Shown here: positions 1 to 15,873 of the stretch, piece after piece
How positions within the stretch are numbered: the first letter of the stretch is position 1
How the letters are laid out: each line of letters opens with the position of its first letter
Source of the DNA: an uncultured Eubacteriales bacterium
GTDB taxonomy: Bacteria > Bacillota > Clostridia > Oscillospirales > Acutalibacteraceae
Assembly: GCA_964470515.1 (NCBI GenBank)
Contig: CAYYDD010000002.1
Span: forward strand, 3,764-67,763
Reading direction: 5' to 3'
Length of the DNA: 64,000 nt
Program-made: the position numbers and the translations under genes
Notes under the pieces: model-generated
Seen by the model: the letters and a program-made list of their open reading frames with translations, nothing else
Databases searched by the model: none
What the model was told of the DNA's origin: nothing

Positions 1-3000
1 CTACTGCAGAGCTGCCCGGCGATCAGTTAACGGATGACGAGCTGCTGGCACAGCTCCGCCGGCGCGGCTGGGGCAATACGCCGAACCCTCGCCTGAAGCA
101 TTTCGTGCTGGGGATCGTGAACAAATTCCGCGGCACCCCCGCCGAGACCGACCTACAGCATCTGGAGCGCCTGTTCACCGAAGCGGTGGAGAACAATCGA
201 TCAAAGGACGTTGCTATTGAAAATGGAAATATTAAATTTTCGATAGCAGAGGACACATCAAGCATTCGAGAACAGATAGCGGCTCATATGGATAAACTTA
301 ATGGAATGAGTCCTGTTTTTGAATCTAATGTTCCTATGGATATACGGCGGAAATATGATGCAGCTCAATGGGCAATCCGGATATTAAAACAAACAGGCTA
401 TCAGGTGGATAGGCAAAATTTTGGCACCATTTATTTTCAGGAAAAGGATATCAAAGCTGCGGCTGAATATGCCGATACGCCTGCTGAAAAAGCGGCTTTT
501 GCGGCTGTTCCAAGAGTCCTTAAAAGAGGGATAGAAATTGGTCGCCATCAAAATCACAAAGGACGCTCTAAAACTACAGTTACCTTTGCGGCACCGGTTG
601 TGCTGAATGGCGTTCGCGGAAATATGGCCGTTGTTGTGAATTTGAATGGAAATCGATACACCGTTCACCGCATAGTTTCTCCCGATGGAAGTGTTTTTTC
701 TTTCTCTGAAAATACGCAAAAAAACACAGAGCAAGAATCGTATCAGGGAGTGCCGCGTGAGCGGTCTCTTGCCGATACCACAAGCTCTGTGTCTAACACC
801 AGTATAGCAAACCAGCCGCCCGGTGTCAATACCTATTCTACGCAGGACGGCACAAAAAAATTCATTGCACCCGAAACGACGGTTGAGCTGCCCGGCGATC
901 AGTTAACGGATGACGAGCTGCTGGCACAGCTCCGCCGGCGCGGCTGGGGCAATACGCCGAACCCTCGCCTGAAGCATTTCGTGCTGGGGATCGTGAACAA
1001 ATTCCGCAGCACCCCCGCCGAGACCGAATTGGAACGCTTGGAGCGGATGTTCGCCGCCGCACTGCCGAAGGCGGAGAGTGCTGGTGATGGGAAAATAAAA
1101 TACTCAATTGGTCTTTCTTTTGCAGAGCAAATCCAACAAATACTGAACGGAACCTTTGACAAAGAACATTCTCATCTCTTTGTTCGGGCGAATACGCCTA
1201 AAGTTTATACAACCTTGGAGAAGGTAAGTATCCCAGATTTGCCGATTGTTATGAGCTACGACAATGCGGTGGTCAGTTTGTTTGATACAAACGAGGGCAC
1301 AAAATCGGATCATAATCACGGCGTGGGAGAAGAAATGATGTGCCTTCTTCCTCAGATGATTGAGGATCCGCTGTATGTCGTGGTGCTTCCTAATGGAAGA
1401 ATTAACGCCATTTTGGAAAATGTGGACAGCAAAGGGCGCCACTATTTTATTTCACTCGAGCTCGAAGTGCAAAAGCCAGTTTCAGAGGTGTACAGCGGTG
1501 GATATAGAGGTAAGCAACATTTGTTGCTGACTGTTTTCGGCGCGCGTGAAAACTACATTAAGAAAATCTTATCGACTCCTGAAAATGTGGTTGTGTATGA
1601 CAAAAAGAAAGATTCGAATCCGCGAGGTAACCCTGAGGGCAATGGCCTCAACATTATCAACGGATCCGAATCTCTTGACCCCAGTATAGCACAACCGCCG
1701 CCCGGTGTCAATGGTTATTCTACGCAGGATGGCACCAAAAAATTCATCGCGCCTGAAACGGCAGAGATCCGTGCTTTTGAAAACAGCGAGGAGCAATTGG
1801 CACGGAACACCGAGGAGATGGCCGAAACGGAAGCGGTATACACCGTGCCGGCGAGTGCTCTGGAGAATTCCGGAAAGCCGATTGCCGACATTTATCGCGG
1901 ATTTTTTACCGCATGGGGCGGTCAATTGTTTTCCGAGGAGCTGGGCGTGATCGATCTGAAGGAATCGAGCATTCGTTCGGAACGCCGACACGGTAATACG
2001 GCACAGAAGATCGCGGCCATCGAAGCGATTCCGGCGGTTATTGCAAACGGCAAGATCATTTTCGTAGGAGAAAAAAACAACGGCCGTGTACAGCGTATCC
2101 TTGTTGCTGCACCAATACGCATAGGCGATAAGCCGTATTACATGGGGATCATGGTTCAACGGGATATACAGAACCAGCGGTTGTACCTTCACGACGTTGC
2201 CATAGAAGAAGAGACGTCCGCAACCTCGCTGGCTGACCTGAGCACGACAGGGGCGAGCGGGGGAGACGAACATCTCTTCACCACCAGTATACTACGGCGT
2301 GCGCTACAAGTCAAGCGGCAGCTTCGTGCGAAGCGTTTTATTGCTCCCGAAACGAGTGCTACCTTTCGTTCGGCTGCAGAACTCAGCGACGAGGAGTTGG
2401 CGGCCGAACTTCGTCGCCGCGGGATGAGCGATCTCCCCAATCCCTTGCAGGTGGCGCAGTTCAAGCCCGCCGACGCACTCACGACGCCGGTACTGCGCCG
2501 TAACGGCCCGATGAACGCCATGGGTGACGGGACGAGTGCTTTTGCCGACAGTGTACAGAATGCCGATATTTTCAGCGACGAGCTGAAACGGCTTGCCGCC
2601 GAGGATGAACAAATCACGCGCTACGACGTGATCACCAACGCAGACACCCTGCGAGAAGCCAACGAGCGTATCAATACGGGCGGCAGAGCCTTTGTGCAGC
2701 GGTTGATGCAACGCGATAGCGACACCTACAGCACCGAGGATCTGGCGGCGGCATTGATCCTCATCAGCCGCTACGAGAAGATCGGCGATCACCGTACCGC
2801 ATTGGTGCTGATGGAAAAGGTGCGCGAGGCAGGGACGGCACACGGTCAAGCGGTGCAGATACTCTCACTCCTCAGCCGTTTAACACCCGACGGTATGGTG
2901 ATGTATGCGCAGCTTGAGCTGTCGCGGGCGTACGAGGTGATGGTGAAGGGAAAGACCAACAAGTGGATCGAGCGGAACAAGGACAGATTTGAACTGACGG

Positions 3001-3305
3001 ACGAGGATATCGAGTTTATCCGCCGGCGCGGCTGGGGCAATACGCCGAACCCTCGCCTGAAGCATTTCGTGCTGGGGATCGTGAACAAATTCCGTGGCAC
3101 GCCCGCCGAGACCGACCTGCAGCGCTTGGAGCGAATGTTCGCCGAAGCGGTGGAGAAAACGCAGGCGACACCTGCTGATGGTGAAAAGAAATTTAGTATT
3201 CAGCGGGATGCCAACGGCGAAAACGTTGTAGTGATAGGGAATGGCCAAAATATTTTTTGGGGGCTGATGAGGCGGATTACCCGAGGATTGCCCGCAATTA
3301 TATAA
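1..3305 (+). CDS. Phage polyvalent (multi-effector) head-packaged protein, upstream part. It is 5'-partial and continues in 3257..7303 after a -1 shift.
   Basis: Frame 3 is open from nt 3, so the start at 105 in the track is an artefact. The translation shows globular modules separated by a recurring linker (GVNxYSTQDGTKKFIAPET). A 60-aa module (LPGDQLTDDELLAQLRRRGWGNTPNPRLKHFVLGIVNKFRGTPAE) recurs. Two modules carry the pattern G.I.F...P.VLK.G...NHK...TFAAPV..NG..G.MAVVV...Y.VHRI, which I recall from nuclease-like domains of polyvalent proteins. Confidence 0.7.
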   Translation, partial: TAELPGDQLTDDELLAQLRRRGWGNTPNPRLKHFVLGIVNKFRGTPAETDLQHLERLFTEAVENNRSKDVAIENGNIKFSIAEDTSSIREQIAAHMDKLNGMSPVFESNVPMDIRRKYDAAQWAIRILKQTGYQVDRQNFGTIYFQEKDIKAAAEYADTPAEKAAFAAVPRVLKRGIEIGRHQNHKGRSKTTVTFAAPVVLNGVRGNMAVVVNLNGNRYTVHRIVSPDGSVFSFSENTQKNTEQESYQGVPRERSLADTTSSVSNTSIANQPPGVNTYSTQDGTKKFIAPETTVELPGDQLTDDELLAQLRRRGWGNTPNPRLKHFVLGIVNKFRSTPAETELERLERMFAAALPKAESAGDGKIKYSIGLSFAEQIQQILNGTFDKEHSHLFVRANTPKVYTTLEKVSIPDLPIVMSYDNAVVSLFDTNEGTKSDHNHGVGEEMMCLLPQMIEDPLYVVVLPNGRINAILENVDSKGRHYFISLELEVQKPVSEVYSGGYRGKQHLLLTVFGARENYIKKILSTPENVVVYDKKKDSNPRGNPEGNGLNIINGSESLDPSIAQPPPGVNGYSTQDGTKKFIAPETAEIRAFENSEEQLARNTEEMAETEAVYTVPASALENSGKPIADIYRGFFTAWGGQLFSEELGVIDLKESSIRSERRHGNTAQKIAAIEAIPAVIANGKIIFVGEKNNGRVQRILVAAPIRIGDKPYYMGIMVQRDIQNQRLYLHDVAIEEETSATSLADLSTTGASGGDEHLFTTSILRRALQVKRQLRAKRFIAPETSATFRSAAELSDEELAAELRRRGMSDLPNPLQVAQFKPADALTTPVLRRNGPMNAMGDGTSAFADSVQNADIFSDELKRLAAEDEQITRYDVITNADTLREANERINTGGRAFVQRLMQRDSDTYSTEDLAAALILISRYEKIGDHRTALVLMEKVREAGTAHGQAVQILSLLSRLTPDGMVMYAQLELSRAYEVMVKGKTNKWIERNKDRFELTDEDIEFIRRRGWGNTPNPRLKHFVLGIVNKFRGTPAETDLQRLERMFAEAVEKTQATPADGEKKFSIQRDANGENVVVIGNGQNIFWGLMRRITRGLPAII
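9..151 (+). repeat. Intragenic direct repeat (linker module copy 1), 142/143 identical to 885..1027.
   Basis: Aligned by eye. The single g/a difference is at 130 versus 1006. Confidence 0.9.
822..983 (+). repeat. Intragenic direct repeat (linker module copy 2), 162 bp identical to 3746..3907.
   Basis: Base-by-base comparison of ggtgtcaatacc...gaagcatttcgtg in both places. Confidence 0.9.
2732..3022 (+). repeat. 291-bp perfect direct repeat, copy A, partner of 5131..5421.
   Basis: All five sequence lines compared are identical at offset 2399. Flanking homologous sequence (2335-2731 versus 4722-5130) is clearly diverged. Confidence 0.9.
3253..3263 (+). other. T6G5 homopolymer junction where the reading frame of the polyvalent gene shifts by -1.
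   Basis: The sequence is aat att ttt tgg ggg. Frame 0 ends 42 nt later at 3305. Frame -1 (ttg ggg gct gat gag) is open to 7303 and continues the protein logically. Confidence 0.75.
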
Positions 3306-6300
3306 ATCAAACCTTTAAAGGTGTGTCGTTGCCCCTTTCCACCCAAAATCTTGTTACGCCGGAAAGTGTTGGTATACAAAAATATATTTATAGCGGAAAA
3401 TCGATAGATACCGATATGCAGTTAGCAAAAATGAAAGTTGCTACAGAATTGGATAATCTGCTTAAAACCTCGAAATTTGTTGGACACTCACCTGATGGGA
3501 AGAATCATCCTTTTGCAAAAGACGGATTTGATTATTATCAAACCAATTTTATTGTGGATGGACAGGTTTTTGAAGGGATTATCGATATTGGTCTAAATGG
3601 AAATAAGCAAACCTTCTATGGAATGACAAATATAAAAAGAGTTACCTCGGATATCGGAAGATACTCCAACCTTTTGTTGGGCTATAACTCCGAATTTTCG
3701 TCGCAAGGTAACTCCACTGACACCACTGTACCACAATATGGTGAAGGTGTCAATACCTATTCTACGCAGGACGGCACAAAAAAATTCATTGCACCCGAAA
3801 CGACGGTTGAGCTGCCCGGCGATCAGTTAACGGATGACGAGCTGCTGGCACAGCTCCGCCGGCGCGGCTGGGGCAATACGCCGAACCCTCGCCTGAAGCA
3901 TTTCGTGACAGGCATCATCAACAAGTTTCGTGGCACTCCTGCCGAATCCGATCTGCAGCGCCTGGAGCGGATGTTCAATGCGGCGATGGAAAACGCAAGA
4001 ACGGCGGAACCCCAGCAAATAGAAAAATCAAATTTCATAAGGCCTGATTTTTACTCAAAATTTGATGAATGGGATGGTATCGCCCCCAATGTAACATTCA
4101 CTATTGGTACAACATCGCAGGCCTTACAATCCATCAATATCAAAGACCAAGAAATCAAATTGCACTCAGGCACAGTAATCAGTAAGATGAGAAAGCATCC
4201 TGAGATGACTCGAGATATTTTCAGACAGATACCTGAACTTTTGGAAAATCCGGTGATTATTCAGTTCTCGGATGCTGTTGATCCTGAAACGGGAAAACCG
4301 AAATACGAATCGAGTATCACGGTTATGGGAGAAGTGTATGCGTTGGACGGCAGGCCAATACTGGTCGCACTTGATTTGTTGCCACAAAAAAAGAAAGGGG
4401 CAAAGATCAAAGACTTTTCAGTTATTAAGAGTGCATACGCTAAAAATGCAAGCCAATTTCAATTGAGCAATAACAGCATCCTATATATTGATCCGAATAA
4501 AAAAAGAACCAATAATTGGCTTTCTCGTACTGGGCTCCAATTGCCGGTCGGAGTAACCAATTATGGTTCTATAAGAAGGATAACATATTCCGATGGAAAA
4601 GTCAAGATTGAAAATTCCTCGAAAATAACTCCTATGGCACTCGCACTTAAAGGAGCCGGTGTTATCGATTCTTACGGTAATAGTATATTCAGCAGAGAAG
4701 AAAATTCTCCAAAAAAGAAAAATTTTATTGCTCCCGAAACTTCTTCCGAAACGGCGGTCGATTCTCGCCCCATTGACCAGTGGAGCGAGGAGGAGATGCA
4801 AGCCGAGCTCAGGCGCCGCCGAGGCAAGACGGATCCCAACCCGCTGCAGGTAGCGCAACTCACACCCGAGGATGCAGTTACCACGCCGCAGATCGCTCCT
4901 CATGGCCGGCTGAATCAGACGGGCGATGGCGCAAGTGCTTTTGCCGACAGCGTGCAGGCATCGGGCATCTTCAGTGATGAACTGAAGCAACTCGCCGTAG
5001 CGGACAGGGAAGTCACCCGATACGATGTCATCACCAATGTGCAAACGCTGGAAGAGGCCAATACCCGTATCAACGAAGGCGGCCGTACGTTCGTGGAGGA
5101 GCTATCCCGTAAAAGCCCGTCGGCTTATACCACCGAGGATCTGGCGGCGGCATTGATCCTCATCAGCCGCTACGAGAAGATCGGCGATCACCGTACCGCA
5201 TTGGTGCTGATGGAAAAGGTGCGCGAGGCAGGGACGGCACACGGTCAAGCGGTGCAGATACTCTCACTCCTCAGCCGTTTAACACCCGACGGTATGGTGA
5301 TGTATGCGCAGCTTGAGCTGTCGCGGGCGTACGAGGTGATGGTGAAGGGAAAGACCAACAAGTGGATCGAGCGGAACAAGGACAGATTTGAACTGACGGA
5401 CGAGGATATCGAGTTTATCCGTCGCCGCACCTGGCAGGCGGCGCAACTACCGAAGGGGCGAGATAAGGATATCCGTCTGGCTGAGATCGCTACGCGGATC
5501 CAGAGCAAGTTCCCGCAGCAGCATGGTCAGGCCTACAAGGCGTTCCAGCGTACGGCTATGCTTCTTAACCCCAAGACCCAGTTGCGTAACGTGCTGGGCA
5601 ATGCCACGATGGCGGGTGCGTTTATCGGCAGCGATACCATCGGCAACCTCATTGACAAGAAAATTGCCAAAAAAACGGGTGTACGCACGACGGCGGGCTT
5701 TCAGTCAGCGGCCGTCAAGGGCTTGAAGCAGGGCTTGTTTGAAAGCTACGACGATTTTGTGAGACATATCAGTACCAGAGACGTTCAGGCCGACCGCTTT
5801 AAGATCAAGCAGAGCAGTCTGGATAATTTCAACGAGAACCATACCGGCAACGCCGCCAAGCTGCGCAACGGTCTGAGCCGCGCACTGAATGCGTTGGATC
5901 GCTTCAACTCGTTTTTGCTGGACGCCGGCGACAGGCTCTTCTATGAGATGTGGTTTATCAATTCGCTGAACGGGCAGATGAAGGCCAACGGTGTGACCGA
6001 GCCGACGTCGGATATGATCGAGATCGCCACACTGGACGCGCTGGAGCGCACGTGGCAGGATAAGAACGCCTTGACGAGATGGCTTTCCAATGTAAAGAAC
6101 GGAATGAACGTCGTCAACGTTCACGGCTACGGTCTGGGTGACGTAGTGCTGAAGTTCGTCAAAACTCCCGCCAACCTCACGAAGGCTATGCTTGAGTTCT
6201 CCCCGGTGGGGCTGGCCAAGGCGATGACGATCGATGCCAAACGATTTTTAACGGCTGTAAACGAGGGAAAGGCCACGCCGCGGATGCAGCGGGCGTTCGT

Positions 6301-7303
6301 CAAAAATCTATCCAACGGTATCGTCGGATCGATCCTTACGGCGATCGCCGCCGGGCTGGCGGCCGCCGGATTGGTGACGGGCGAGCAGGACGAGGATGAC
6401 GATGTGGCTGCGTTTAAAAAGGACGTGCTGGGCTACCAGCCGTATTCCTTTAAGATTGGCAACATCTCGTTTTCTTATGACTGGATGCAGCCCATCGGCG
6501 CGTATGTTGCGATGATGGCGAACTACTACCAGGATAAGGAGAACGCCGAGCTGACCGGCGAAAGGCTGGATGCGTTCAATGCGATCCTCGGGGTGTTCAA
6601 ATCGGGTGGCCGAGCGCTGTTCAATCAATCGTTTATGAAATCCATTCAGACGTTATTTGCCGACGACGATCCGATCACCGGGAAGAACGGTGGACTGGTA
6701 TCGGCAAACATGACCTACGAACAGTGGGCGGCGTTACAGGATACCAAACACGGGACAGGCACCATTGACAAGCTGCGGCGCATGGCGTACAATAGGAGTG
6801 CGGATAAGGCGCAGTTCTATGCGTATAAATCGCGCTTGGGAGCGGACGCGCCGAAAACATTTGCGGAGTTCCAACAAATCAAATACAATGACTCGAAGCG
6901 GTATGCAGATCTTGTTGGATACTACATATACAAAGGCGAAAATCCTGAAAGCGGACACAATTTTTACGAAGCAAATAAAGCAATACAAGAGCTTCGTAGT
7001 GCCGGTGGGATTAAGGCGACAGGAACGATCGTAGCACCACCGCGAGGAAATCAGATAAAGACTCTTAATGACCATGCTAAACTCCGATTTGCTGAACGAG
7101 GCATTGCACAGGCGTGGACTCAGGGAATTGTTGATGGTGCGGATTTTGCCTTAAAACAGCGACTTGGTACACAACATGTTTATTACTCCAATGGTGGTAT
7201 GGTGGTTCTTAACGACATTGGAGAAGTTGGAACGGCAGGAATGCTGGATGAACAGGGAAAACTTCTGTATGATGAGGTGATAAAGTATGTCAGAAAGCAG
7301 TGA
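3257..7303 (+). CDS. Phage polyvalent head-packaged protein, downstream part, occupying the MuF/minor-head-protein slot, with a C-terminal toxin-like domain.
   Basis: The first residues (GADEADYPRIARNYINQTF) continue the sentence broken in the upstream ORF (..ENVVVIGNGQNIF). It contains another linker copy, a MuF-C-like module (KHPEMTRDIFRQIPELLENPVII...SAYAKN...LYID), a duplicated helical region, a roughly 450-aa core with a hydrophobic patch, and a terminal HxxxRxxERGI domain. It sits directly upstream of the scaffold and capsid genes. Confidence 0.7.
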   Translation: MGADEADYPRIARNYINQTFKGVSLPLSTQNLVTPESVGIQKYIYSGKSIDTDMQLAKMKVATELDNLLKTSKFVGHSPDGKNHPFAKDGFDYYQTNFIVDGQVFEGIIDIGLNGNKQTFYGMTNIKRVTSDIGRYSNLLLGYNSEFSSQGNSTDTTVPQYGEGVNTYSTQDGTKKFIAPETTVELPGDQLTDDELLAQLRRRGWGNTPNPRLKHFVTGIINKFRGTPAESDLQRLERMFNAAMENARTAEPQQIEKSNFIRPDFYSKFDEWDGIAPNVTFTIGTTSQALQSINIKDQEIKLHSGTVISKMRKHPEMTRDIFRQIPELLENPVIIQFSDAVDPETGKPKYESSITVMGEVYALDGRPILVALDLLPQKKKGAKIKDFSVIKSAYAKNASQFQLSNNSILYIDPNKKRTNNWLSRTGLQLPVGVTNYGSIRRITYSDGKVKIENSSKITPMALALKGAGVIDSYGNSIFSREENSPKKKNFIAPETSSETAVDSRPIDQWSEEEMQAELRRRRGKTDPNPLQVAQLTPEDAVTTPQIAPHGRLNQTGDGASAFADSVQASGIFSDELKQLAVADREVTRYDVITNVQTLEEANTRINEGGRTFVEELSRKSPSAYTTEDLAAALILISRYEKIGDHRTALVLMEKVREAGTAHGQAVQILSLLSRLTPDGMVMYAQLELSRAYEVMVKGKTNKWIERNKDRFELTDEDIEFIRRRTWQAAQLPKGRDKDIRLAEIATRIQSKFPQQHGQAYKAFQRTAMLLNPKTQLRNVLGNATMAGAFIGSDTIGNLIDKKIAKKTGVRTTAGFQSAAVKGLKQGLFESYDDFVRHISTRDVQADRFKIKQSSLDNFNENHTGNAAKLRNGLSRALNALDRFNSFLLDAGDRLFYEMWFINSLNGQMKANGVTEPTSDMIEIATLDALERTWQDKNALTRWLSNVKNGMNVVNVHGYGLGDVVLKFVKTPANLTKAMLEFSPVGLAKAMTIDAKRFLTAVNEGKATPRMQRAFVKNLSNGIVGSILTAIAAGLAAAGLVTGEQDEDDDVAAFKKDVLGYQPYSFKIGNISFSYDWMQPIGAYVAMMANYYQDKENAELTGERLDAFNAILGVFKSGGRALFNQSFMKSIQTLFADDDPITGKNGGLVSANMTYEQWAALQDTKHGTGTIDKLRRMAYNRSADKAQFYAYKSRLGADAPKTFAEFQQIKYNDSKRYADLVGYYIYKGENPESGHNFYEANKAIQELRSAGGIKATGTIVAPPRGNQIKTLNDHAKLRFAERGIAQAWTQGIVDGADFALKQRLGTQHVYYSNGGMVVLNDIGEVGTAGMLDEQGKLLYDEVIKYVRKQ
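3746..3907 (+). repeat. Intragenic direct repeat (linker module copy 4), partner of 822..983.
   Basis: Identical 162 bp. A shorter 77-bp copy (3021..3097) matches 933..1009. Confidence 0.9.
5131..5421 (+). repeat. 291-bp perfect direct repeat, copy B.
   Basis: See 2732..3022. After the repeat, copy A joins the linker module (RRRGWGNTPNP) and copy B continues into the core (RRRTWQAAQLPKG). Confidence 0.9.
7061..7300 (+). other. C-terminal 80-aa toxin-like domain of the polyvalent protein (DUF4258 / BECR-fold RNase-like).
   Basis: TLNDHAKLRFAERGIAQAW..YYSNGGMVVL matches the remembered DUF4258 signature H-x3-R-x2-ERGI followed by beta strands. The terminal position is as in polymorphic MuF-type phage toxins. 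Confidence 0.4.
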
Positions 7304-7466
7304 AAAGGTGAAGTGCCCCTTGCTGGGTAGAGAAATCGATTGGGGTTATTGCTGGGAACTTTGCAACATTGCCGCCGATGGTGTTTTGCTCAGAGGCGAT
7401 AAAGTGTCAAACTGGGATGAAGCCCAAAAGATCTGCCGAAAGTGCGGTCGGTATTCCGAGGAATGA
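7287..7466 (+). CDS. Small Cys-rich protein (59 aa), candidate immunity or partner protein. Not in the supplied ORF track.
   Basis: The ATG at 7287 overlaps the last 17 nt of the upstream gene. Translation: MSESSEKVKCPLLGREIDWGYCWELCNIAADGVLLRGDKVSNWDEAQKICRKCGRYSEE. It has C10, a CxxxC and a CxxC. An intrinsic terminator follows. Confidence 0.45.
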   Translation: MSESSEKVKCPLLGREIDWGYCWELCNIAADGVLLRGDKVSNWDEAQKICRKCGRYSEE

Positions 7467-7516
7467 TTTCATTGCGCTAGGCAAATCCTTACTACAATTC
7501 AATACGGTTATGAGAA

Positions 7517-7549
7517 GCATGGTGCAGTCAACTGCACAGTGCTTTTTTT
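7517..7549 (+). terminator. Rho-independent terminator after the small Cys-rich ORF.
   Basis: gcatggtgcag-tcaa-ctgcacagtgc followed by T7. Confidence 0.7.
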
Positions 7550-7657
7550 ATACAAAATAACGCCTACCGTGCCGGCATATAACTGCACGGTCGCCACGGC
7601 GCAGAGCTGACTGCGGATTTATAAATCAAAGAAATGTGAGGGCGGGAAAGGAAACCT

Positions 7658-8242
7658 ATGGACTATTTGAAACCCTTATTTGGCGACGGAGCGCTGACCT
7701 ACGATCAGTTTGCTTCCAAAGTGGCCGAAGCCGGCGATGGCATCAAACTTGCCAACCTGGCGGACGGTCACTATGTTTCTCGCGTGAAATACGACGAGGA
7801 CATAGGTGTCGCCAACGGCAAGCTGGAAACGGCGAATGGGACGATCACAACCATGCAGGACGCGCTGAAGAAGTTTGACGGTGTGGATGTGGCTGGCCTG
7901 CAGGACCAACTCCAGCAGTTGCAGCAGAAGTACGACAGCGATATGGTGAGGCTGACGCTGGACGCGGCGATCGCCTCCCGTGTGCGGGATCTCGGCACGC
8001 GGAACCCGCAGTTGGTTGCCGGAGCAATCGATCGTTCACGGATCACGCAGGAGGAGGATGGCACGCTGAGCGGGCTTGATGAGCAGCTGGAAGCTTTAAA
8101 AGCATCTGACGCGTACCTGTTCAACATCACCGAAACACAGAACATCGGCACCGGGCACTGCGGTGGTACACCGCCCGCCGGTGGCGAGACTGACCCTGAA
8201 AAAATGAGTATGAGCGAGTACAAGAAGTACCGCCGACAGTAA
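7658..8242 (+). CDS. Phage scaffolding protein (GP20-like).
   Basis: The N-terminus MDYLKPLFGDGALTYDQFASKV..IKLANLADGHYVSRVKYDE and a Q/E-rich coiled middle are typical of this family. An RBS (gggaaaggaaacc) precedes the ATG. Confidence 0.75.
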   Translation: MDYLKPLFGDGALTYDQFASKVAEAGDGIKLANLADGHYVSRVKYDEDIGVANGKLETANGTITTMQDALKKFDGVDVAGLQDQLQQLQQKYDSDMVRLTLDAAIASRVRDLGTRNPQLVAGAIDRSRITQEEDGTLSGLDEQLEALKASDAYLFNITETQNIGTGHCGGTPPAGGETDPEKMSMSEYKKYRRQ

Positions 8243-8260
8243 AAAGGAGAAAAAAGCACA

Positions 8261-8647
8261 ATGGGAAATACGTTCCTTACCCCAAACATCGTTGCGAAAG
8301 AGGCACTGATGGTGCTGGAAAGCAACCTGACGATGGCCAACTTGGTCCACCGCGATTTTGACGATGAATTTGCGCAGGTGGGCGACACCATCAGTATCCG
8401 CAAGCCTGCTCGTTTCACGGCAAAGAATTTCACCGGTACAACCGAGGCACAGAATATCACCGAGGGCAGCGTGGCGGTAAAGATGGATCGCTTCCGCGAC
8501 GTTACCGTCAACGTCACTGCTAAGCAGATGACGCTGGACATCAAGGATTTTTCCGAGCAGGTGGTCAAACCCGCTATGTCGGCCATCATGTGCAAACAAA
8601 AGTCGAAAAATCGACGTAAAATGCAAAAGTTTCACCCAAGGGGGTAA
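8261..8647 (+). pseudogene. Major capsid protein (P22-coat-like), 5' fragment only.
   Basis: MGNTFLTPNIVAKEALMVLESNLTMANLVHRDFDDEFAQVGDTISIRKPARF is capsid-like for about 110 codons. It then becomes the basic low-complexity tail CKQKSKNRRKMQKFHPRG and stops. Full-length relatives are 300 aa or more. Confidence 0.6.
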
Positions 8648-8716
8648 ATATTTTTTACCGATATCGTTATATAATGGAGAAGTAAATTATTTCCGCAGAA
8701 AGGATGGCAAAACACA

Positions 8717-9430
8717 ATGAAAGTGATCCGTACAAAAACGTATGAAGAAATGAGCTATGAGGCCGCCAAGTTGCTGGCCGCGCAGATCGTGCTACGGCCG
8801 GACTGTGTTCTGGGGCTGGCCACGGGCTCCACACCCATCGGTACATACGATCAGCTCGTCAAATGGTACGAGGAAGGCAAGCTGGATTTCTCCGCTGTCC
8901 GTTCCGTCAATCTGGACGAATACTGCGGCCTTGACGGTGAAAGTGACCAGAGCTATCGCTGGTTTATGGATCATCACCTGTTCGACCGTGTGAACATTGA
9001 CAAGGCGAACACCAACGTTCCCAACGGCAAGGCGGTCGACCCGGAAGCGGAGGGCGCGCGTTACGATGCGCTCATTGAGTCGCTCGGCGGTGTGGATATT
9101 CAGGTGCTCGGCATCGGCTATGACGGCCACATCGGCTTTAACGAGCCCGGCCCGGCGTTCGTCAAGCCCACGCATATGGTGGATCTGGATCCCAGCACCA
9201 TCCAAGCCAACGCCCGTTTCTTTGCCTCGGAGGACGACGTGCCGCGTCAGGCCATCACGATGGGTATGGGCGGTATTATGTCAGCCCGCAAGGTGTTGCT
9301 GATTGCAAACGGCACCGGCAAAAAGGAGATACTGATGAAGTCGCTGTACGGCCCCATCACGCCCGAGGTTCCCGCCTCGCTGCTACAGTTGCACCCCGAC
9401 CTCACGGTCATCTGCGCCGTAGATGAATAA
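8717..9430 (+). CDS. nagB: Glucosamine-6-phosphate deaminase.
   Basis: GLATGSTP, NLDEY, YDGHIGFNEPG motifs. RBS gaaagga. Confidence 0.9.
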   Translation: MKVIRTKTYEEMSYEAAKLLAAQIVLRPDCVLGLATGSTPIGTYDQLVKWYEEGKLDFSAVRSVNLDEYCGLDGESDQSYRWFMDHHLFDRVNIDKANTNVPNGKAVDPEAEGARYDALIESLGGVDIQVLGIGYDGHIGFNEPGPAFVKPTHMVDLDPSTIQANARFFASEDDVPRQAITMGMGGIMSARKVLLIANGTGKKEILMKSLYGPITPEVPASLLQLHPDLTVICAVDE

Positions 9431-9436
9431 GCAATA

Positions 9437-9470
9437 AAAGATCACCACCCGCACGGGTGGTGATCTTTTT
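9437..9470. terminator. Bidirectional terminator between convergent nagB and tlyA.
   Basis: aaagatcaccaccc-gcac-gggtggtgatcttt, flanked by A and T runs. Confidence 0.8.
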
Positions 9471-10272
9471 ATGGCTGATCGTCCGGTTGCTGTGCGACCA
9501 CCTCGGTGATCAGTGCCGTTAGCACTTCCTTGCTCAGCGGTGCATCTTCGGTAAACCGTGCCAGATATTCCACGTTACCGTTGGTGCCGTGGATGGGGGA
9601 GACGGTCAGCCCCTGCACGTACAGCCCGTTTTCCGCCGCTGACTCAAACAACTTCATCAGCAGCGGCGGCAGATCGGCAGGGTTCTTCAGCACGCCGTTT
9701 TTACCGAGCTGACGCGGCTGTGCCTCAAACTGCGGCTTGATAAGGCAGATACACGCCCCCTCCGGCTTTAATATCGCGCGGATGGCGGGATAGATCTTGG
9801 ATAGGGAAATGAACGACACGTCCGCCGTCACCAGATCGCATACCGTGCCGAGCTGCTCAGCGGTCAGACTTCGGGCGTTGGTGCGCTCCAACACCGTCAC
9901 ACGGGGGTCGTTGCGCAGCTCCCACGCCAGAATACCGTAGGCCACGTCCACCGAAAACACGTGCGCCGCACCGTTCTGCAGCAGGCAATCCGTGAAGCCG
10001 CCGTTGCTCGCGCCGATATCGCATACCGTCAGCCCCTCGGTCGGCTGCGCAAACACCTCCAAGGCCTTGGCCAGCTTGTAGCCGGAACGGCTGGCGTATT
10101 TTTTTGTTTTTTGGGTGAGGGTGAGCACCGTGTCAGCGGGGACGGACATTCCCGGTTTGTCTGCCGGTATGTGCCCGATCCAGATGCGACCGGCCATAAT
10201 CAGCCCGGTCGTTTCCTCCGGCGATAACCCGAATTGCTGCATCGCCAGCGTGTCCAAACGTATGTTTTCCAC
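9469..10272 (-). CDS. tlyA: TlyA-family rRNA 2'-O-methyltransferase.
   Basis: S4-like N-terminus plus SRSGYKL and DIGASNGGFTD SAM motif. Confidence 0.85.
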   Translation of the reverse strand: MENIRLDTLAMQQFGLSPEETTGLIMAGRIWIGHIPADKPGMSVPADTVLTLTQKTKKYASRSGYKLAKALEVFAQPTEGLTVCDIGASNGGFTDCLLQNGAAHVFSVDVAYGILAWELRNDPRVTVLERTNARSLTAEQLGTVCDLVTADVSFISLSKIYPAIRAILKPEGACICLIKPQFEAQPRQLGKNGVLKNPADLPPLLMKLFESAAENGLYVQGLTVSPIHGTNGNVEYLARFTEDAPLSKEVLTALITEVVAQQPDDQP

Positions 10273-13783: not shown

Positions 13784-13860
13784 CCGGGTGTAGCGCAGAT
13801 TGGTAGCGCGCTTGAATGGGGTTCAAGAGGCCGCAGGTTCGACTCCTGTCACTCGGACCA
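13784..13860 (+). tRNA. tRNA-Pro (anticodon GGG), with encoded CCA.
   Basis: Manual cloverleaf: acceptor CCGGGTG/CACTCGG (one G-T pair), U8, D stem GCGC/GCGC, anticodon stem CTTGA/TCAAG with loop A-T-GGG-G-T, T arm GCAGG-TTCGACT-CCTGT, discriminator A, CCA. Total 77 nt. Confidence 0.9.
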
Positions 13861-13865
13861 TATTA

Positions 13866-13900
13866 GCACGATGGTTTTGATACGAAACCATTGTGCTTTT
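13866..13900 (+). terminator. Rho-independent terminator of the tRNA.
   Basis: gcacgatggttt-tgatac-gaaaccattgtgc (12 bp stem, one G-T pair) followed by tttt. Confidence 0.8.
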
Positions 13901-13956
13901 CTATGTTCAAAAAGCCTTGTGTTGCAAGACTTTTTGCTACTTCTACAATAGCATTA

Positions 13957-14130
13957 GTTTCATTGTATCAAAGCAGCCTGCATGAAAGTCCGAGTTAGAG
14001 GACTTAATCCTCCCATTTTTCTATGTACAAACATTGCAATGAAACTTTTATTTTGGATTAGTTTCGTTGTGGTGAGAAAAGTTTCATCGTGACTGAAATA
14101 GTATCATTGTGCCATGTATATGTTTCATTG
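13957..14130 (+). repeat. Left array of the GTTTCATTG-type motif (6 copies).
   Basis: gtttcattg at 13957; caatgaaac (inverted) at 14037; gtttcgttg at 14061; gtttcatcg at 14081; gtatcattg at 14101; gtttcattg at 14122. The last four are spaced 20/20/21 bp. Confidence 0.8.
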
Positions 14131-14136
14131 ATAAAT

Positions 14137-14176
14137 AAAAAGGACTTCCAATACGGTGATTAGTATTGGAAGTCCT
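14137..14176 (-). terminator. Terminator of the restriction endonuclease gene.
   Basis: aggacttccaatac-ggtgatta-gtattggaagtcct (14 bp perfect stem), with a T run on the minus strand. Confidence 0.85.
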
Positions 14177-14181
14177 AAATA

Positions 14182-14808
14182 TTAGTCTAAATATTTTTTG
14201 AGATACGCATTAAAATGGTGTATCAATTCTTCATTTCCCATTTGTGGACGCCACATAAAGAAATTTTTGTCATATGTATCGAACCAAAATGCAATTTCAC
14301 GGTTTCGCTTCGGATCTCTCGTGATATCACCTTCAAGAACAACCCAAAAAGGAAGAACTTCCGTATCAGTTATACCGCTTGCCTCGCGATACTTTTTTAT
14401 CAATCCCGGAGTGAACAGCTTGCACATTCTTTCGTGCGCATTTCCTCTGCCTGCACTTGGGTCTTTTCCTTCGACCCATCCATCTTGGCGTTTAATTTCT
14501 CCGAATAAAATTTTACCCGTTCTTGTATTTTGAATCGAAAAGTCGGGAGAGACACCCCAACCACGACTCCTGGCGGTTTCCATAGTTCTTTCATCAGGAC
14601 AAAAAATTTGTGCGAGCGTTTCCTCACTTAATACCACACTCTCATAGATGTGCTTTAAGTCTGTGGGATGGTCATTGATAACATACTCTGTCCCCACGAA
14701 CGCTGCTCGGAATGCCTGTAACAAGTTCTTCTCGGCAGTTCCCGCAAGGCCTCCAGGACCAGACTCCGTCTGCCAATTATCACGTTTGCTGAGTTCTGCT
14801 TTTGCCAT
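14182..14808 (-). CDS. Type II restriction endonuclease, PD-(D/E)XK, MunI/EcoRI-like.
   Basis: The catalytic pattern SPDFSI..(13 aa)..GEIKRQ is PD...E-I-K as in R.MunI. Its size (208 aa) is close to the roughly 200 aa of R.MunI. It follows a C protein and faces an MT-A70 methyltransferase, which is the munI locus layout as I remember it. Confidence 0.65.
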   Translation of the reverse strand: MAKAELSKRDNWQTESGPGGLAGTAEKNLLQAFRAAFVGTEYVINDHPTDLKHIYESVVLSEETLAQIFCPDERTMETARSRGWGVSPDFSIQNTRTGKILFGEIKRQDGWVEGKDPSAGRGNAHERMCKLFTPGLIKKYREASGITDTEVLPFWVVLEGDITRDPKRNREIAFWFDTYDKNFFMWRPQMGNEELIHHFNAYLKKYLD

Positions 14809-14819
14809 GATATTTACAC

Positions 14820-15026
14820 CTACAGCTCTCTAAATAATTCTTCGAGTGATATATCTAAACCTTTTGCGATTTTTTCGATATTCACTATTGAGATGTTTCT
14901 TTTGCCATTCTCTACGGAAGCATAGTATGTTCTATCCATATCAATCGAAATGGCAAATTTTTCTTGACTAAGTCCTTTGCTTAGTCGTAATTGTTTAATT
15001 CTTTCGCCAAATCTAACCGTTATCAT
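14820..15026 (-). CDS. R-M controller (C) protein, XRE-type HTH, 68 aa.
   Basis: The start is moved to MITVRFGERIKQLR (RBS ggggggaaag). HTH LSQEKFAISIDMDRTYYASVENGKRNIS is typical of C proteins. It lies 12 nt upstream of the endonuclease gene. Confidence 0.75.
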   Translation of the reverse strand: MITVRFGERIKQLRLSKGLSQEKFAISIDMDRTYYASVENGKRNISIVNIEKIAKGLDISLEELFREL

Positions 15027-15157
15027 TACTTTCCCCCCTATACAACAATATTCTACAGCAACTGATGCCAATAAGACAACGGACTATAAGCAACATTTGT
15101 GTTGACTTTCATACATGGTGGGTGTATAATAATAAAAAAATAAAAGGATTTACCGAA
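15027..15157. promoter_or_regulatory. Divergent promoter/operator region of the R-M cassette.
   Basis: Plus strand: TTGACT (15102-07), 17-nt spacer, TATAAT (15125-30) for the methyltransferase. Minus strand: TTGTCT, 18-nt spacer, TAGAAT for the C and R genes. The inverted repeat CAACA-tttg-TGTTG (15091-15104) overlaps the -35 of the methylase promoter. Confidence 0.5.
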
Positions 15158-15847
15158 ATGAGAGAAAATAAAGACATAACCGCATACTCCTTGTATAGCG
15201 TACAAGCAAGGCAGAGAACAAAGGTCAATCCATTAGAGGATGTGTACCCGCCTTTACCAGACAAAAAATATCAAGTGATATATGCTGACCCACCATGGGA
15301 TTATGGTGGAAAAATGCAATTTGATAAAACAACCATCAAGGATGAGAATGTCGGTTTTGAGAAAAAGATTTTCCTCAGTTCTGCTACCTTCAAATATCCC
15401 ACCCTCAAACTCAAACAACTAAAAGAGTTAGATGTTGCTTCGATTGCGGCAGATGATTGTTTGCTGTTTATGTGGACTACTGGCCCTCAAATGAGCAACG
15501 CTATCGAATTAGGAACAGCATGGGGGTTTGAGTATAAAACGGTCGCTTTTGTGTGGGATAAAATGGTTCACAATCCTGGTAGATACACATTAAGTCAAAC
15601 AGAGTTTGTACTTGCCTTTAAGAAGGGTAAGTTCCCTCAACCCAGAGGAGCAAGAAATGTGCGACAAATGGTACAGGTCCATCGCGGCGCACATAGCGTT
15701 AAGCCTATCGAAGTGATTGCTGGAATTACTAAAATGTTCCCCGAACAAGGAAAAATTGAATTGTTTGCAAGAAACAACTATGTGGGCTGGGATAACTGGG
15801 GTCTTGAAATTCCCGATAGTAAAATCGATATTAAAACTGGTATATAA
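15158..15847 (+). CDS. MT-A70 family N6-adenine DNA methyltransferase (M.MunI-like).
   Basis: The DPPW motif (VIYADPPWDYGG) is followed by CLLFMWTT. The start is moved to MRENKD (RBS aaagga). Confidence 0.8.
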   Translation: MRENKDITAYSLYSVQARQRTKVNPLEDVYPPLPDKKYQVIYADPPWDYGGKMQFDKTTIKDENVGFEKKIFLSSATFKYPTLKLKQLKELDVASIAADDCLLFMWTTGPQMSNAIELGTAWGFEYKTVAFVWDKMVHNPGRYTLSQTEFVLAFKKGKFPQPRGARNVRQMVQVHRGAHSVKPIEVIAGITKMFPEQGKIELFARNNYVGWDNWGLEIPDSKIDIKTGI

Positions 15848-15873
15848 AATCTAATTGGTCTTGTTCATAAGGA

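What the first reader, a model, noticed from the sequence alone, without database searches (positions are those of the whole stretch)
1..7303. Giant phage polyvalent protein in the MuF/minor-head slot, continuous only with a -1 shift at a T6G5 run
ORFs 1..3305 and 3257..7303 overlap by 49 nt and read as one sentence across the run aatATTTTTTGGGGGctg: ..ENVVVIGNGQNIF | GADEADYPRIARNYINQTF... Joined, they give a protein of more than 2,400 aa that is still 5'-partial. It sits immediately upstream of the scaffold and capsid genes, the position of SPP1 gp7/MuF-type proteins that are packaged into heads. The body is a chain of small globular modules. At least three look like the nuclease-type effector domains of the 'polyvalent protein' class, and two look like MuF-C-type modules. 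There is also a large core with a hydrophobic patch. The break could be a programmed -1 or transcriptional slip that makes two products, a homopolymer sequencing error, or decay of a dead prophage.
Basis: partly seen in the sequence, partly recalled or inferred. Interest (0 to 1): 0.7.

Follow-up and report, generated by a model that had tools for sequence, protein, structure and literature searches.

The report
Broken polyvalent gene in prophage remnant
A giant multi-domain phage "polyvalent" virion-protein gene is split by a one-base loss inside one of its domains, and because it sits in a rearranged, truncated prophage fragment the break is best read as ordinary gene decay (or a sequencing slip), not a programmed frameshift.

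Summary
ORF1 (3..3305, 5'-partial) and ORF2 (3257..7303) overlap by 49 nt at a T6G5 run (3253-3263). A -1 shift joins them into a protein of at least 2,433 aa.

Homology confirms the join. 136 of 147 representative homologues read straight through the site, across a conserved motif (DTDQxIFxG...YxKIAR) inside an LPD3-like domain.

The protein is a polyvalent protein: three LPD3-type modules, two MuF-C (PBECR) modules, four copies of a HeH/LEM-like linker, and a roughly 640-aa all-helical core.

The locus is a wreck:
- The coat gene stops after about 109 real codons and abuts host genes.
- The core lacks a 200-270-aa C-terminal part that 92 homologues keep. It is fused to the 3' end of a true MuF gene, without the MuF domain.
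- A 220-aa piece of the core is duplicated and joined to a linker with 4 bp of microhomology.

Intact relatives of the core sit in the internal-virion/tail region of podovirus-like prophages, not in the MuF slot.

There is no slippery heptamer and no downstream structure, and the run is absent in the one relative whose DNA I could read.

Verdict: an unprogrammed one-base indel in a defective prophage. It is probably a real mutation, but a sequencing error is not excluded. Low interest.

The parts
3..188 (+). Linker repeat copy 1 (ELPGDQLTDDELLAQLRRRGWGNTPNPRLKHFV...LERLF), with a HeH/LEM-like motif. The window starts inside it.
   Evidence: Direct repeat family D1. DNA alignment of the four copies. 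The Pfam LEM hit (E 3.5e-8 for the whole of ORF1) has its best stretch on a related motif at ORF1 aa 792-809.
225..878 (+). Module M1, LPD3-like. It ends in ...GVNTYSTQDGTKKFIAPET.
   Evidence: PF18798 E 9.3e-6, 26.3 bits, just under the 27-bit cutoff. P0001 residues 3-111 align to it.
879..1064 (+). Linker repeat copy 2.
1065..1760 (+). Module M2, MuF-C (PBECR-type) domain.
   Evidence: PF18819 E 5.8e-6 and a weak PBECR2 hit.
1761..2354 (+). Module M3, LPD3 domain.
   Evidence: PF18798: whole-ORF1 E 1.1e-12, 48.5 bits, with its best stretch in this module. The module scanned alone gives E 3.6e-7, 30.8 bits.
2355..3020 (+). Duplicated N-terminal ~220 aa of the core. The last 300 nt are 99% identical to 5126-5425. 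It ends at an illegitimate junction ...IEFIRRR|GWGNTPNP.
   Evidence: Repeat D3. Secondary HSPs of about 90 homologues at joined aa ~813-1006. Junction microhomology is TCCG only.
3021..3152 (+). Linker repeat copy 3, lacking its first third.
3180..3802 (+). Module M4, LPD3-like domain, interrupted by the frameshift 26 residues from its start.
   Evidence: PF18798 E 1.1e-3. 737 homologues, most inside proteins of 2,000-3,800 aa. Conserved motif across the break.
3253..3263 (+). T6G5 run, the site of the -1 frame change. The 0-frame stop is at 3303-3305.
3803..3988 (+). Linker repeat copy 4.
3989..4741 (+). Module M5, MuF-C (PBECR-type) domain.
   Evidence: PF18819 E 1.9e-13, 50.8 bits.
4742..6676 (+). 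Conserved all-helical core of an internal-virion-protein-like family, with a hydrophobic helix at joined aa 2106-2125. It is truncated and lacks the family's conserved C-terminal 200-270 aa.
   Evidence: 94 homologues. Matches end at aa ~2219-2227. 92 homologues share the missing tail, which is absent from the window. phrog_6651. AF2 model pLDDT 76. BFVD matches.
6677..6931 (+). Helical 'post-MuF' tail (DPITGK..ANMTYEQW...KYNDSKRY), which in real MuF proteins follows the Phage_Mu_F domain.
   Evidence: phrog_21033.
6932..7303 (+). C-terminal ~120-aa domain shared with short MuF proteins. It is a possible toxin-type domain, function not shown.
   Evidence: 56-57% identity to P0109/P0110/P0112, which carry PF04233. 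No Pfam hit. The AF2 model is poor.
7287..7466 (+). 59-aa Cys-rich ORF overlapping the ORF2 stop by 17 nt. Candidate partner or immunity protein of the C-terminal domain.
   Evidence: 72% identity to the 62-aa ORF in the same position and with the same overlap after the MuF gene of L017. Such small ORFs follow 89.4% of MuF toxin genes (PMC5576092).
7522..7550 (+). Terminator-like hairpin followed by a T run.
   Evidence: This is a consensus match only.
7658..8242 (+). Head scaffolding protein gene, apparently intact.
   Evidence: PF06810 E 1.1e-28; phrog_194.
8261..8647 (+). Stump of a P22-type coat gene. About 109 coat-like codons are followed by 19 unrelated codons and a stop.
   Evidence: PF11651 positions 1-112 of 423; phrog_283 positions 1-114 of 385. 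The same junction is present in an independent unitig, L007.
8717..9430 (+). First chromosomal gene (glucosamine-6-P isomerase / 6-phosphogluconolactonase family). It marks the end of the phage DNA.
   Evidence: PF01182. Higher GC and GC3 from here on.

Best explanation
Window 1-8650 is the right-hand end of a defective, rearranged prophage. Its main gene once encoded a single giant polyvalent virion protein. That protein is a string of small effector-type modules (LPD3 x3, MuF-C/PBECR x2) separated by a repeated HeH-like linker and attached to a helical internal-virion-protein-like core. In intact relatives this core is presumably packed into the capsid and ejected into the host with the DNA.

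In this lineage the gene has been scrambled. An N-terminal piece of the core was duplicated and joined to a linker. The core lost its conserved C-terminal third and became fused, in frame, to the 3' end of a MuF minor-head gene belonging to a different head module (MuF tail, small ORF, scaffold, coat). That head module was in turn cut off inside the coat gene.

The break at 3253-3263 is an unprogrammed loss of one base in a homopolymer, most simply T7 to T6. It splits a conserved motif of an LPD3-like domain. If it is real, the upstream 1,100+ codons end 16 codons later, and the downstream 1,348 codons have no proper start, so the gene is a pseudogene.

Shown: the frames, the domain content, continuity across the break in homologues, the truncations and the fusions. 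Inferred: that the indel is a real mutation rather than an error, the order of events, and virion delivery by the core.
For: Frames and run.

The break lies inside a domain:
- Pfam LPD3 hit.
- P0001 reads through in one frame.
- 136 of 147 representatives span the site in one HSP, motif V[VI][VI]DTDQx[IL]FxG...YxKIA[RK]. The residue at x is never W and is L in 4, which favours T7 over G6 as the ancestral state.

The prophage is defective:
- The coat matches only profile positions 1-112 of 423 and is followed directly by host genes.
- The coat/host junction and the core::MuF junction are both in an independent Logan unitig that is 100% identical over 5392-9607.

The core is truncated:
- Homologue matches stop at aa ~2219-2227 and have 200-470 further residues.
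- 92 homologues share that tail, and tblastn finds none of it in the window.
- 15 nearly invariant columns lie beyond our end.

The C-terminus comes from a MuF gene.

The core family is not in the MuF slot in relatives: L013, L014, L015.

Internal duplication with 4-bp microhomology.

Not programmed:
- 0-frame codons are ATT TTT TGG, so there is no X XXY YYZ heptamer.
- The downstream fold has z -0.16.
- Homologue L012 has TTG TTT GTA GGC at this site, with no run.

The assembly looks otherwise clean:
- Eleven other runs of 6 or more bases in the gene are in frame.
- All host genes checked give full-length domain matches.
Against: - No reads were available, so a homopolymer miscall cannot be excluded.
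- There is only one frame break in 7.3 kb, and both rearrangement junctions are in frame. The gene was therefore under selection until recently, or still is, and the rearrangements may predate the death of the phage.
- Iyer et al. 2017 report frequent domain duplication and rearrangement in intact polyvalent genes.
- The 5' end of the gene and everything upstream lie outside the window, so an upstream MuF domain, portal and terminase cannot be ruled in or out.
- The DNA-level comparison at the slip site rests on one homologue at 52% identity.
Confidence: 0.6

Rival explanations
1. Sequencing or assembly error. The true genome has T7G5 or T6G6 and the polyvalent gene is one intact ORF of more than 2,433 codons. 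It would still lie in a truncated prophage.
For: - The break is exactly at an 11-nt double homopolymer, the classic place for indel errors.
- It is the only frame break in 7.3 kb, and the reading frame is otherwise perfectly preserved, including across two rearrangement junctions.
Against: - Eleven other runs of 6-7 bases in the same gene, and 14 runs of 7 in the window, cause no frame problems.
- Host genes checked are full length.
- An independent unitig is 100% identical over 4.2 kb, though it does not cover the site.
- The gene is in a demonstrably defective element, where inactivating mutations are expected.
Confidence: 0.3
2. Programmed -1 ribosomal frameshift or transcriptional slippage. 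This would make a short product (modules M1-M3 plus stub) and a full-length product carrying the core and the MuF tail.
For: - tRNA-Phe at TTT (3255-3257) could re-pair perfectly one base back on the T run.
- The next 0-frame codon is TGG.
- The -1 product restores the conserved domain sequence.
Against: - There is no canonical X XXY YYZ heptamer in the 0 frame.
- There is no stable or unusual downstream structure (z -0.16 and +1.14).
- T6 is short for efficient polymerase slippage (established knowledge).
- The shift falls inside a conserved motif of a globular domain, not at a module boundary, so the 0-frame product ends in a useless stub.
- The one homologue with readable DNA has no run.
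- The element lacks a coat gene, so no virion can be loaded.
Confidence: 0.04
3. The rearranged gene is a functional chimera. A phage replaced the MuF domain of its minor head protein with a polyvalent array plus core and kept the MuF tail. The locus is a recently inactivated or domesticated module rather than random wreckage.
For: - Both internal junctions are in frame (about 1 in 9 by chance).
- The MuF tail, C-terminal domain and small ORF are conserved as a cassette, at 57% and 72% identity to L017.
- Polyvalent genes are known to evolve by such shuffling (PMC5512222).
Against: - Apart from the self-hit P0004, none of the 93 core homologues has this C-terminus, and all homologues of the C-terminal cassette that retain their N-terminal part carry the Phage_Mu_F domain.
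- The core lacks 15 nearly invariant positions.
- The coat gene next door is destroyed.
Confidence: 0.15

Closest known systems
Polyvalent proteins of phages and conjugative elements (Iyer, Burroughs, Anand, de Souza, Aravind 2017, J Bacteriol; PMC5512222)
   Same: - Many small effector-type domains in one giant polypeptide.
- The specific Pfam families defined in that work: LPD3 PF18798 and MuF_C PF18819 (a PBECR-type predicted RNase).
- A virion-gene neighbourhood.
- Evidence of duplication and shuffling of modules.
- The M4 module occurs in hundreds of proteins of 2,000-3,800 aa.
   Different: - No zincin MPTase (HExxH) in the 2,433 aa visible here, although relatives P0100 and P0028 contain an HExxH motif that may mark one (read by eye; not tested with any profile).
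- The gene is frameshifted, its core is truncated, and it lies in a defective prophage.
Internal virion (ejection) proteins of podoviruses: phrog_6651, and the 'internal virion protein' of T7-like cyanophages and pelagiphages
   Same: - The ~640-aa helical core hits phrog_6651 (E 9.4e-9).
- Its AF2 model matches BFVD models of polyvalent gut-phage proteins (E down to 2.5e-41) and cyanophage/pelagiphage internal virion proteins (E 1e-9 to 1e-6).
- Relatives sit beside tail-fibre and lysis genes in SU10-portal-type prophages.
   Different: - Here the conserved C-terminal 200-270 aa is missing.
- No solved structure matches.
- Ejection has not been shown for any member.
MuF / SPP1 gp7 minor head proteins and MuF polymorphic toxins (Jamet et al. 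2017, BMC Biol; PMC5576092)
   Same: - The last ~210 aa are 56-57% identical to the C-terminal part of proteins that carry Phage_Mu_F.
- A conserved small ORF follows, as for 89.4% of MuF toxins.
- The position directly upstream of the scaffold gene matches L017: portal, MuF, small ORF, scaffold, capsid.
   Different: - The defining Phage_Mu_F domain (PF04233) is absent from the visible sequence.
- Homology begins only after the point where that domain ends in L002 and P0112.
- Toxicity of the C-terminal domain is unproven, and its model was too poor to classify.
Programmed -1 frameshift sites (dnaX, IS elements, phage tail-assembly chaperone G/GT)
   Same: Two overlapping ORFs are joined by a -1 shift at a T-rich run.
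   Different: - No X XXY YYZ heptamer, no stimulatory structure and no conservation.
- The site lies within a folded domain.

Membership tests
Polyvalent proteins (Iyer et al. 2017) | Two or more distinct effector or associated domains of the polyvalent repertoire in one polypeptide | tested here: met
   The LPD3 hits for M3 and the MuF_C hit for M5 are above the Pfam cutoffs. M1, M2 and M4 are just below.
Polyvalent proteins (Iyer et al. 2017) | Encoded among virion or transfer-apparatus genes of a mobile element | tested here: met
   Scaffold and coat stump lie downstream. Relatives lie in phage structural modules.
Polyvalent proteins (Iyer et al. 2017) | Processing peptidase (zincin MPTase); frequent but not obligatory | tested here: not met
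   No HExxH in the 2,433 aa and no peptidase Pfam hit. The N-terminus is outside the window.
MuF / SPP1 gp7 minor head protein (PF04233) | Phage_Mu_F domain | tested here: not met
   No PF04233 hit even at E up to 1. Homologues that have it align only downstream of the domain. The unseen 5' end could not be tested.
MuF / SPP1 gp7 minor head protein (PF04233) | Gene directly after the portal gene and before scaffold and capsid | tested here: inconclusive
   It lies before the scaffold. The upstream side is outside the window.
MuF polymorphic toxins (Jamet et al. 2017) | Variable C-terminal toxin domain followed by a small immunity ORF | tested here: inconclusive
   A conserved C-terminal domain and a 59-aa ORF are present. 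No known toxin family was hit and the structural model is unreliable.
Programmed -1 ribosomal frameshift | Slippery heptamer X XXY YYZ in the 0 frame | tested here: not met
   0-frame codons are AAT ATT TTT TGG.
Programmed -1 ribosomal frameshift | Downstream stimulatory hairpin or pseudoknot | tested here: not met
   MFE -23 kcal/mol against a shuffle mean of -22.4; z -0.16.
Programmed -1 ribosomal frameshift | Conservation of the site and of the two-frame layout in relatives | tested here: not met
   L012 has no run and is in frame at this point. 136 of 147 homologous proteins are continuous across it. No close (over 60% identity) relative was available.
Internal virion protein-like core family (phrog_6651 and about 94 homologues) | Conserved ~640-aa helical region with a hydrophobic helix | tested here: met
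Internal virion protein-like core family (phrog_6651 and about 94 homologues) | Conserved C-terminal 200-270 aa continuation | tested here: not met
   It is absent. Homologue matches end at aa ~2225 and the tail is not found anywhere in the window.

The most novel reading that the evidence does not exclude
The core::MuF-tail chimera with its repeated HeH-like linkers could be a working design rather than wreckage. In that reading, a head-targeted polyvalent protein shuffles its modules by recombination at the near-identical linker repeats, and the T6G5 site is used at low level to make two products from one gene. The conserved inter-module motif (VNTxxTQDGxK[YF][SI][VA]P, also seen in P0100 and P0028) would then be a processing or recombination signal worth testing.
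Probability: 0.05. Interest if true: 0.6.

Novelty: new member of a known kind. Interest (0 to 1): 0.2.

Why it matters
The direct result is practical. This locus should be annotated as a frameshifted polyvalent-protein pseudogene in a prophage remnant, not as a recoding site or a novel MuF protein.

Two side results have modest value:
- The ~640-aa helical core defines a sizeable family with no Pfam domain assigned to the core itself. I found 94 or more members in gut Clostridia phages. These carry interchangeable effector heads (ART-PolyVal, PBECR3, MuF-C, LPD3, LPD23, ParB) and resemble podovirus internal virion proteins by predicted fold. That points to the core as the delivery part of these polyvalent proteins.
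- The locus preserves clear scars of how such genes are rebuilt: linker repeats, a microhomology junction and an in-frame fusion to a MuF tail.

Tried and rejected
Searches for the source genome or a close orthologue, to read the run length there:
- The genome-contig scan found only distant MuF tails.
- Exact-pattern scans of viral and metagenome contigs found nothing.
- Exact-protein look-ups of ORF2 failed three times.
- The scaffold and first host protein exist only on one 4.2-kb Logan unitig, which does not reach the frameshift.

Structure and family searches:
- PDB sequence searches of both halves gave nothing.
- PDB Foldseek on the core gave nothing (best E 0.27).
- The AF2 model of the C-terminal domain was too poor (pLDDT under 55 in the domain) to search, so the BECR/toxin idea stays untested.
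- hhalign against the MuF-C module was negative. One search was a mis-specified comparison and carries no information.

Looking for the rest of the phage in the window: tblastn with the ORFs of seven related loci found only the core and the MuF tail.

Rejected ideas:
- ORF2 as an independently initiated gene. Its TTG start has no well-spaced Shine-Dalgarno sequence and would begin mid-domain.
- A chimeric assembly as the cause of the core::MuF and coat::host junctions. Both are in unitig L007.

Full report
**1. Observation**

The sequence at 3240-3270 is aatggccaaaatATTTTTTGGGGGctgatg, with T6 at 3253-3258 and G5 at 3259-3263.

- The frame-0 reading is open from window base 3 to a stop at 3303-3305. 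That is 1,100 codons with no start, so it is 5'-partial.
- The -1 frame is open from 3257 to 7303, 1,348 codons.
- The overlap is 49 nt. Joining the two gives 2,433 aa.

**2. The two ORFs were once one gene, and the break is inside a domain**

- The region around the break is an LPD3-like module: PF18798, E 1.1e-3 on the joined module and E 1.2e-3 on ORF2 alone.
- The closest homologue, P0001 (52% identity), reads NVVVIDTDQGLFVGADESEYRKIAK in one frame.
- An exhaustive HMMER search of 1.84 billion representatives with the joined module found 737 homologues, 339 of them at E of 1e-10 or better. Most are embedded in proteins of 2,000-3,800 aa.
- 136 of the 147 with a BLAST alignment span the junction in a single HSP. 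They share the motif V[VI][VI]DTDQx[IL]FxG...YxKIA[RK], with exactly one residue between F and G.
- Our sequence VVIGNGQNIF-x-GADEADYPRIAR fits with one residue at x. At that position the homologues have D, E, K, V, N, A, L or I but never W. This mildly favours an ancestral TTT TTG GGG (T7G5, F-L-G) over T6G6 (F-W-G).
- The 0-frame product would end 16 codons after the run, in a stub of the domain.

**3. What the protein is**

The order is:

1. Linker.
2. M1, LPD3-like (E 9.3e-6).
3. Linker.
4. M2, MuF_C (E 5.8e-6).
5. M3, LPD3 (E 3.6e-7 alone; the whole-ORF1 hit of E 1.1e-12 has its best stretch here).
6. A 220-aa copy of the N-terminal part of the core.
7. Partial linker.
8. M4, LPD3-like, frameshifted.
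9. Linker.
10. M5, MuF_C (E 1.9e-13).
11. Core, ~645 aa.
12. An 85-aa helical tail.
13. A ~120-aa C-terminal domain.

Further points:

- According to Iyer et al. 2017 (PMC5512222), MuF-C is a PBECR-type predicted RNase domain. The functions of LPD1-40 'remain elusive', and LPD3 is not among those the authors flag as likely enzymes. 'Two MuF-C modules' is supported.
- The ~62-aa linker (ELPGDQLTDDELLAQLRRRGWGNTPNPRLKHFV...LERMF) occurs four times. Its central ~80 nt is identical in copies 1-3 and diverges somewhat in copy 4. A related HeH/LEM-like motif is scored by Pfam LEM (E 3.5e-8).
- Modules end in ...GVNTYSTQDGTKKFIAPET. A related motif separates modules in P0100 and P0028.
- There is no HExxH peptidase motif in the visible 2,433 aa.

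**4. The core**

- The core has 94 homologues at E of 1e-3 or better. They are 570-2,204 aa long and come from Clostridia, Oscillospiraceae and phage metagenomes.
- Their N-terminal heads vary: ART-PolyVal, MuF_C, LPD3, LPD23, ParB-N and, for cluster member P0100, PBECR3.
- The core hits phrog_6651 'internal virion protein' (E 9.4e-9).
- An AlphaFold model built from 51 sequences is all-helical, with pLDDT 76 and pTM 0.70.
- The model has no PDB match (best E 0.27).
- In BFVD it matches polyvalent gut-phage proteins (E 2.5e-41 to 1e-12). More distantly it matches the 'internal virion protein' of T7-like cyanophages and a pelagiphage (E 1e-9 to 1e-6).
- In relatives the gene sits in the virion/tail part of podovirus-like prophages:
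  - L013: terminase, major head protein, SU10-type portal, virion structural protein, the 2,204-aa polyvalent protein, then a tail-fibre-like gene.
  - L014: an ORF with a faint SU10-adaptor hit, an LPD23 protein, ART-PolyVal plus core, tail-fibre-like genes, lysis genes, integrase.
  - L015: capsid ... holin, endolysin, a 675-aa protein, the core protein, recombinase.
- None of these relatives has the gene in a MuF slot.
- The inference is that the core is the packaged and ejected carrier and the N-terminal modules are its cargo. This follows from context and fold resemblance. It has not been shown.

**5. The locus is a rearranged remnant**

(a) The coat gene is a stump.
- It matches only positions 1-112 of the 423-position P22 coat profile and 1-114 of 385 in phrog_283.
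- Nineteen unrelated codons and a stop follow, then an AT-rich stretch and a chromosomal gene.
- From there on the window holds densely packed host-type genes with higher GC and GC3.

(b) The core is truncated.
- Essentially all homologue alignments stop at joined aa ~2219-2227, and the homologues continue for 200-470 aa.
- 92 homologues share a conserved continuation that tblastn cannot find anywhere in the window.
- The family alignment has 15 nearly invariant columns beyond our end.

(c) The core is fused to the 3' end of a MuF gene.
- The core is followed by DPITGKNGGLVSANMTYEQW....
- In L001-L006, and in P0109, P0110 and P0112, this segment comes directly after the Phage_Mu_F domain of ordinary minor head proteins.
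- Examples: in L002, PF04233 covers residues 195-299 and the tail covers 317-395. P0112 reads ...APPFHPWCRGTT...KDMTYKDW....
- The last ~200 aa are 56-57% identical to those MuF proteins.
- The following 59-aa Cys-rich ORF (7287-7466, 17-nt overlap) is 72% identical to the 62-aa ORF in the same position in L017.
- L017 is a canonical prophage with terminase, SPP1-type portal, MuF, small ORF, scaffold, capsid and sheath genes.
- So the ORF is a fusion: polyvalent core lacking its C-terminus, joined to MuF lacking its N-terminus. The parts come from two different kinds of phage module.

(d) Part of the core is duplicated.
- The piece at 2355-3020 is joined to a linker at ...ATCCG|CCGGCGCGGCTGGGG, with only about 4 bp of microhomology.
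- Its last 300 nt are 99% identical to 5126-5425.

Junctions (a) and (c) are real in the reads. A Logan unitig from SRR14307646 is 100% identical to window 5392-9607. The unitig begins at the edge of the 300-nt repeat, as expected for a repeat-limited unitig.

**6. Is the shift programmed?**

- The 0-frame codons are AAT ATT TTT TGG, so there is no X XXY YYZ heptamer. Only a single P-site slip of tRNA-Phe is conceivable.
- The 90 nt downstream fold no better than shuffles (z -0.16), and the 200-nt context gives z +1.14.
- The homologue with readable DNA has CAA GGT TTG TTT GTA GGC GCT at this place, with no run.
- The shift would cut a folded domain.
- The element cannot make capsids.

I put a programmed event at about 4%.

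**7. Real mutation or error?**

In favour of a real mutation:
- Eleven other runs of 6-7 bases in the gene and 14 runs of 7 in the window are harmless.
- Every host gene checked gives full-length domain matches.
- The independent unitig agrees perfectly where it overlaps.
- The gene lies in a defective element.

In favour of an error:
- The site is a double homopolymer.
- It is the only lesion in 7.3 kb.
- Both rearrangement junctions are in frame, so the reading frame has been kept until very recently.

I could not reach reads or any close orthologue. My split is about 0.6 real, 0.3 error. Either way the break is unprogrammed.

**8. Comparison with known systems**

- The protein is a member of the polyvalent-protein class of Iyer et al. 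2017.
- Its core belongs to an internal-virion-protein-like family that Pfam does not cover.
- Its C-terminal 210 aa and the following small ORF belong to a MuF gene of the kind discussed by Jamet et al. 2017 (PMC5576092). [quoted passage not shown]
- The defining MuF domain is missing, and toxicity is untested.
- It does not meet any tested criterion of a programmed frameshift site.

**9. Verdict**

The identification as a polyvalent protein is correct. The 'MuF slot' is an artefact of a gene fusion. The frame break is an ordinary indel in a decaying prophage fragment. Interest is low (0.2). The novelty class is a new, broken member of a known kind. The residual novel reading, a functional chimera with low-level recoding or meaningful linker repeats, gets about 5%.

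Noticed in passing
window 13784-15850: A tRNA-Pro(GGG) gene at 13784-13860 is followed by a low-GC island (GC 0.39 against about 0.58). The island carries a MunI-type restriction endonuclease (14182-14808, minus strand; PF11407, E 8e-61) and an MT-A70 methyltransferase (15065-15847). This looks like a tRNA-adjacent restriction-modification island.
   Followed up: partly
L012 (contig of P0001), about 1700-2750: The closest relative of module M4 is also split. Its polyvalent reading frame changes twice (frame 1 to 3 to 2) close to copies of its own repeated linker (ITVPQNEQSVNTNIS...). Broken or misassembled polyvalent genes may be common where linkers are repeated.
   Followed up: partly
L008-L011, gene at L008 10001-11245 (P0003): A stand-alone 414-aa relic (end of linker, LPD3-like module, first ~170 aa of the core) sits between ordinary chromosomal genes (Sm_multidrug_ex and APH). 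It is identical in four independent contigs. This is another fossil of the same gene family.
   Followed up: no
window 7287-7466 and L017 9626-9814: A small Cys-rich ORF (VKCPLLxxEIDWGYCWELCNIAxD...CxKCGRYS) is conserved at 72% identity. In both loci it overlaps the end of the MuF-type gene by 17 nt. It may be a zinc-binding partner or immunity protein of the conserved C-terminal domain.
   Followed up: partly
window 3-188, 879-1064, 3021-3152, 3803-3988; also P0100 and P0028: The inter-module linkers are near-identical at the DNA level over about 80 nt. Each is preceded by a motif (VNTYSTQDGTKKFIAPET here; VNTQYTQDGAKYSVPP and similar in relatives) that is conserved across proteins only about 56% identical in the core. 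It could be a cleavage site or a recombination handle.
   Followed up: no
L001 8993-10756: The MuF protein of this Eubacteriales MAG carries, after the same ANMTYEQW tail, a long C-terminal extension with a Cys motif (MCDSCKG). It looks like a typical MuF polymorphic toxin with a different warhead.
   Followed up: no
L017 about 8650-8760: The MuF gene of this reference prophage contains a run of N (a scaffold gap). Its 267-aa gene call is therefore an artefact, and the real gene starts just after the portal gene.
   Followed up: yes
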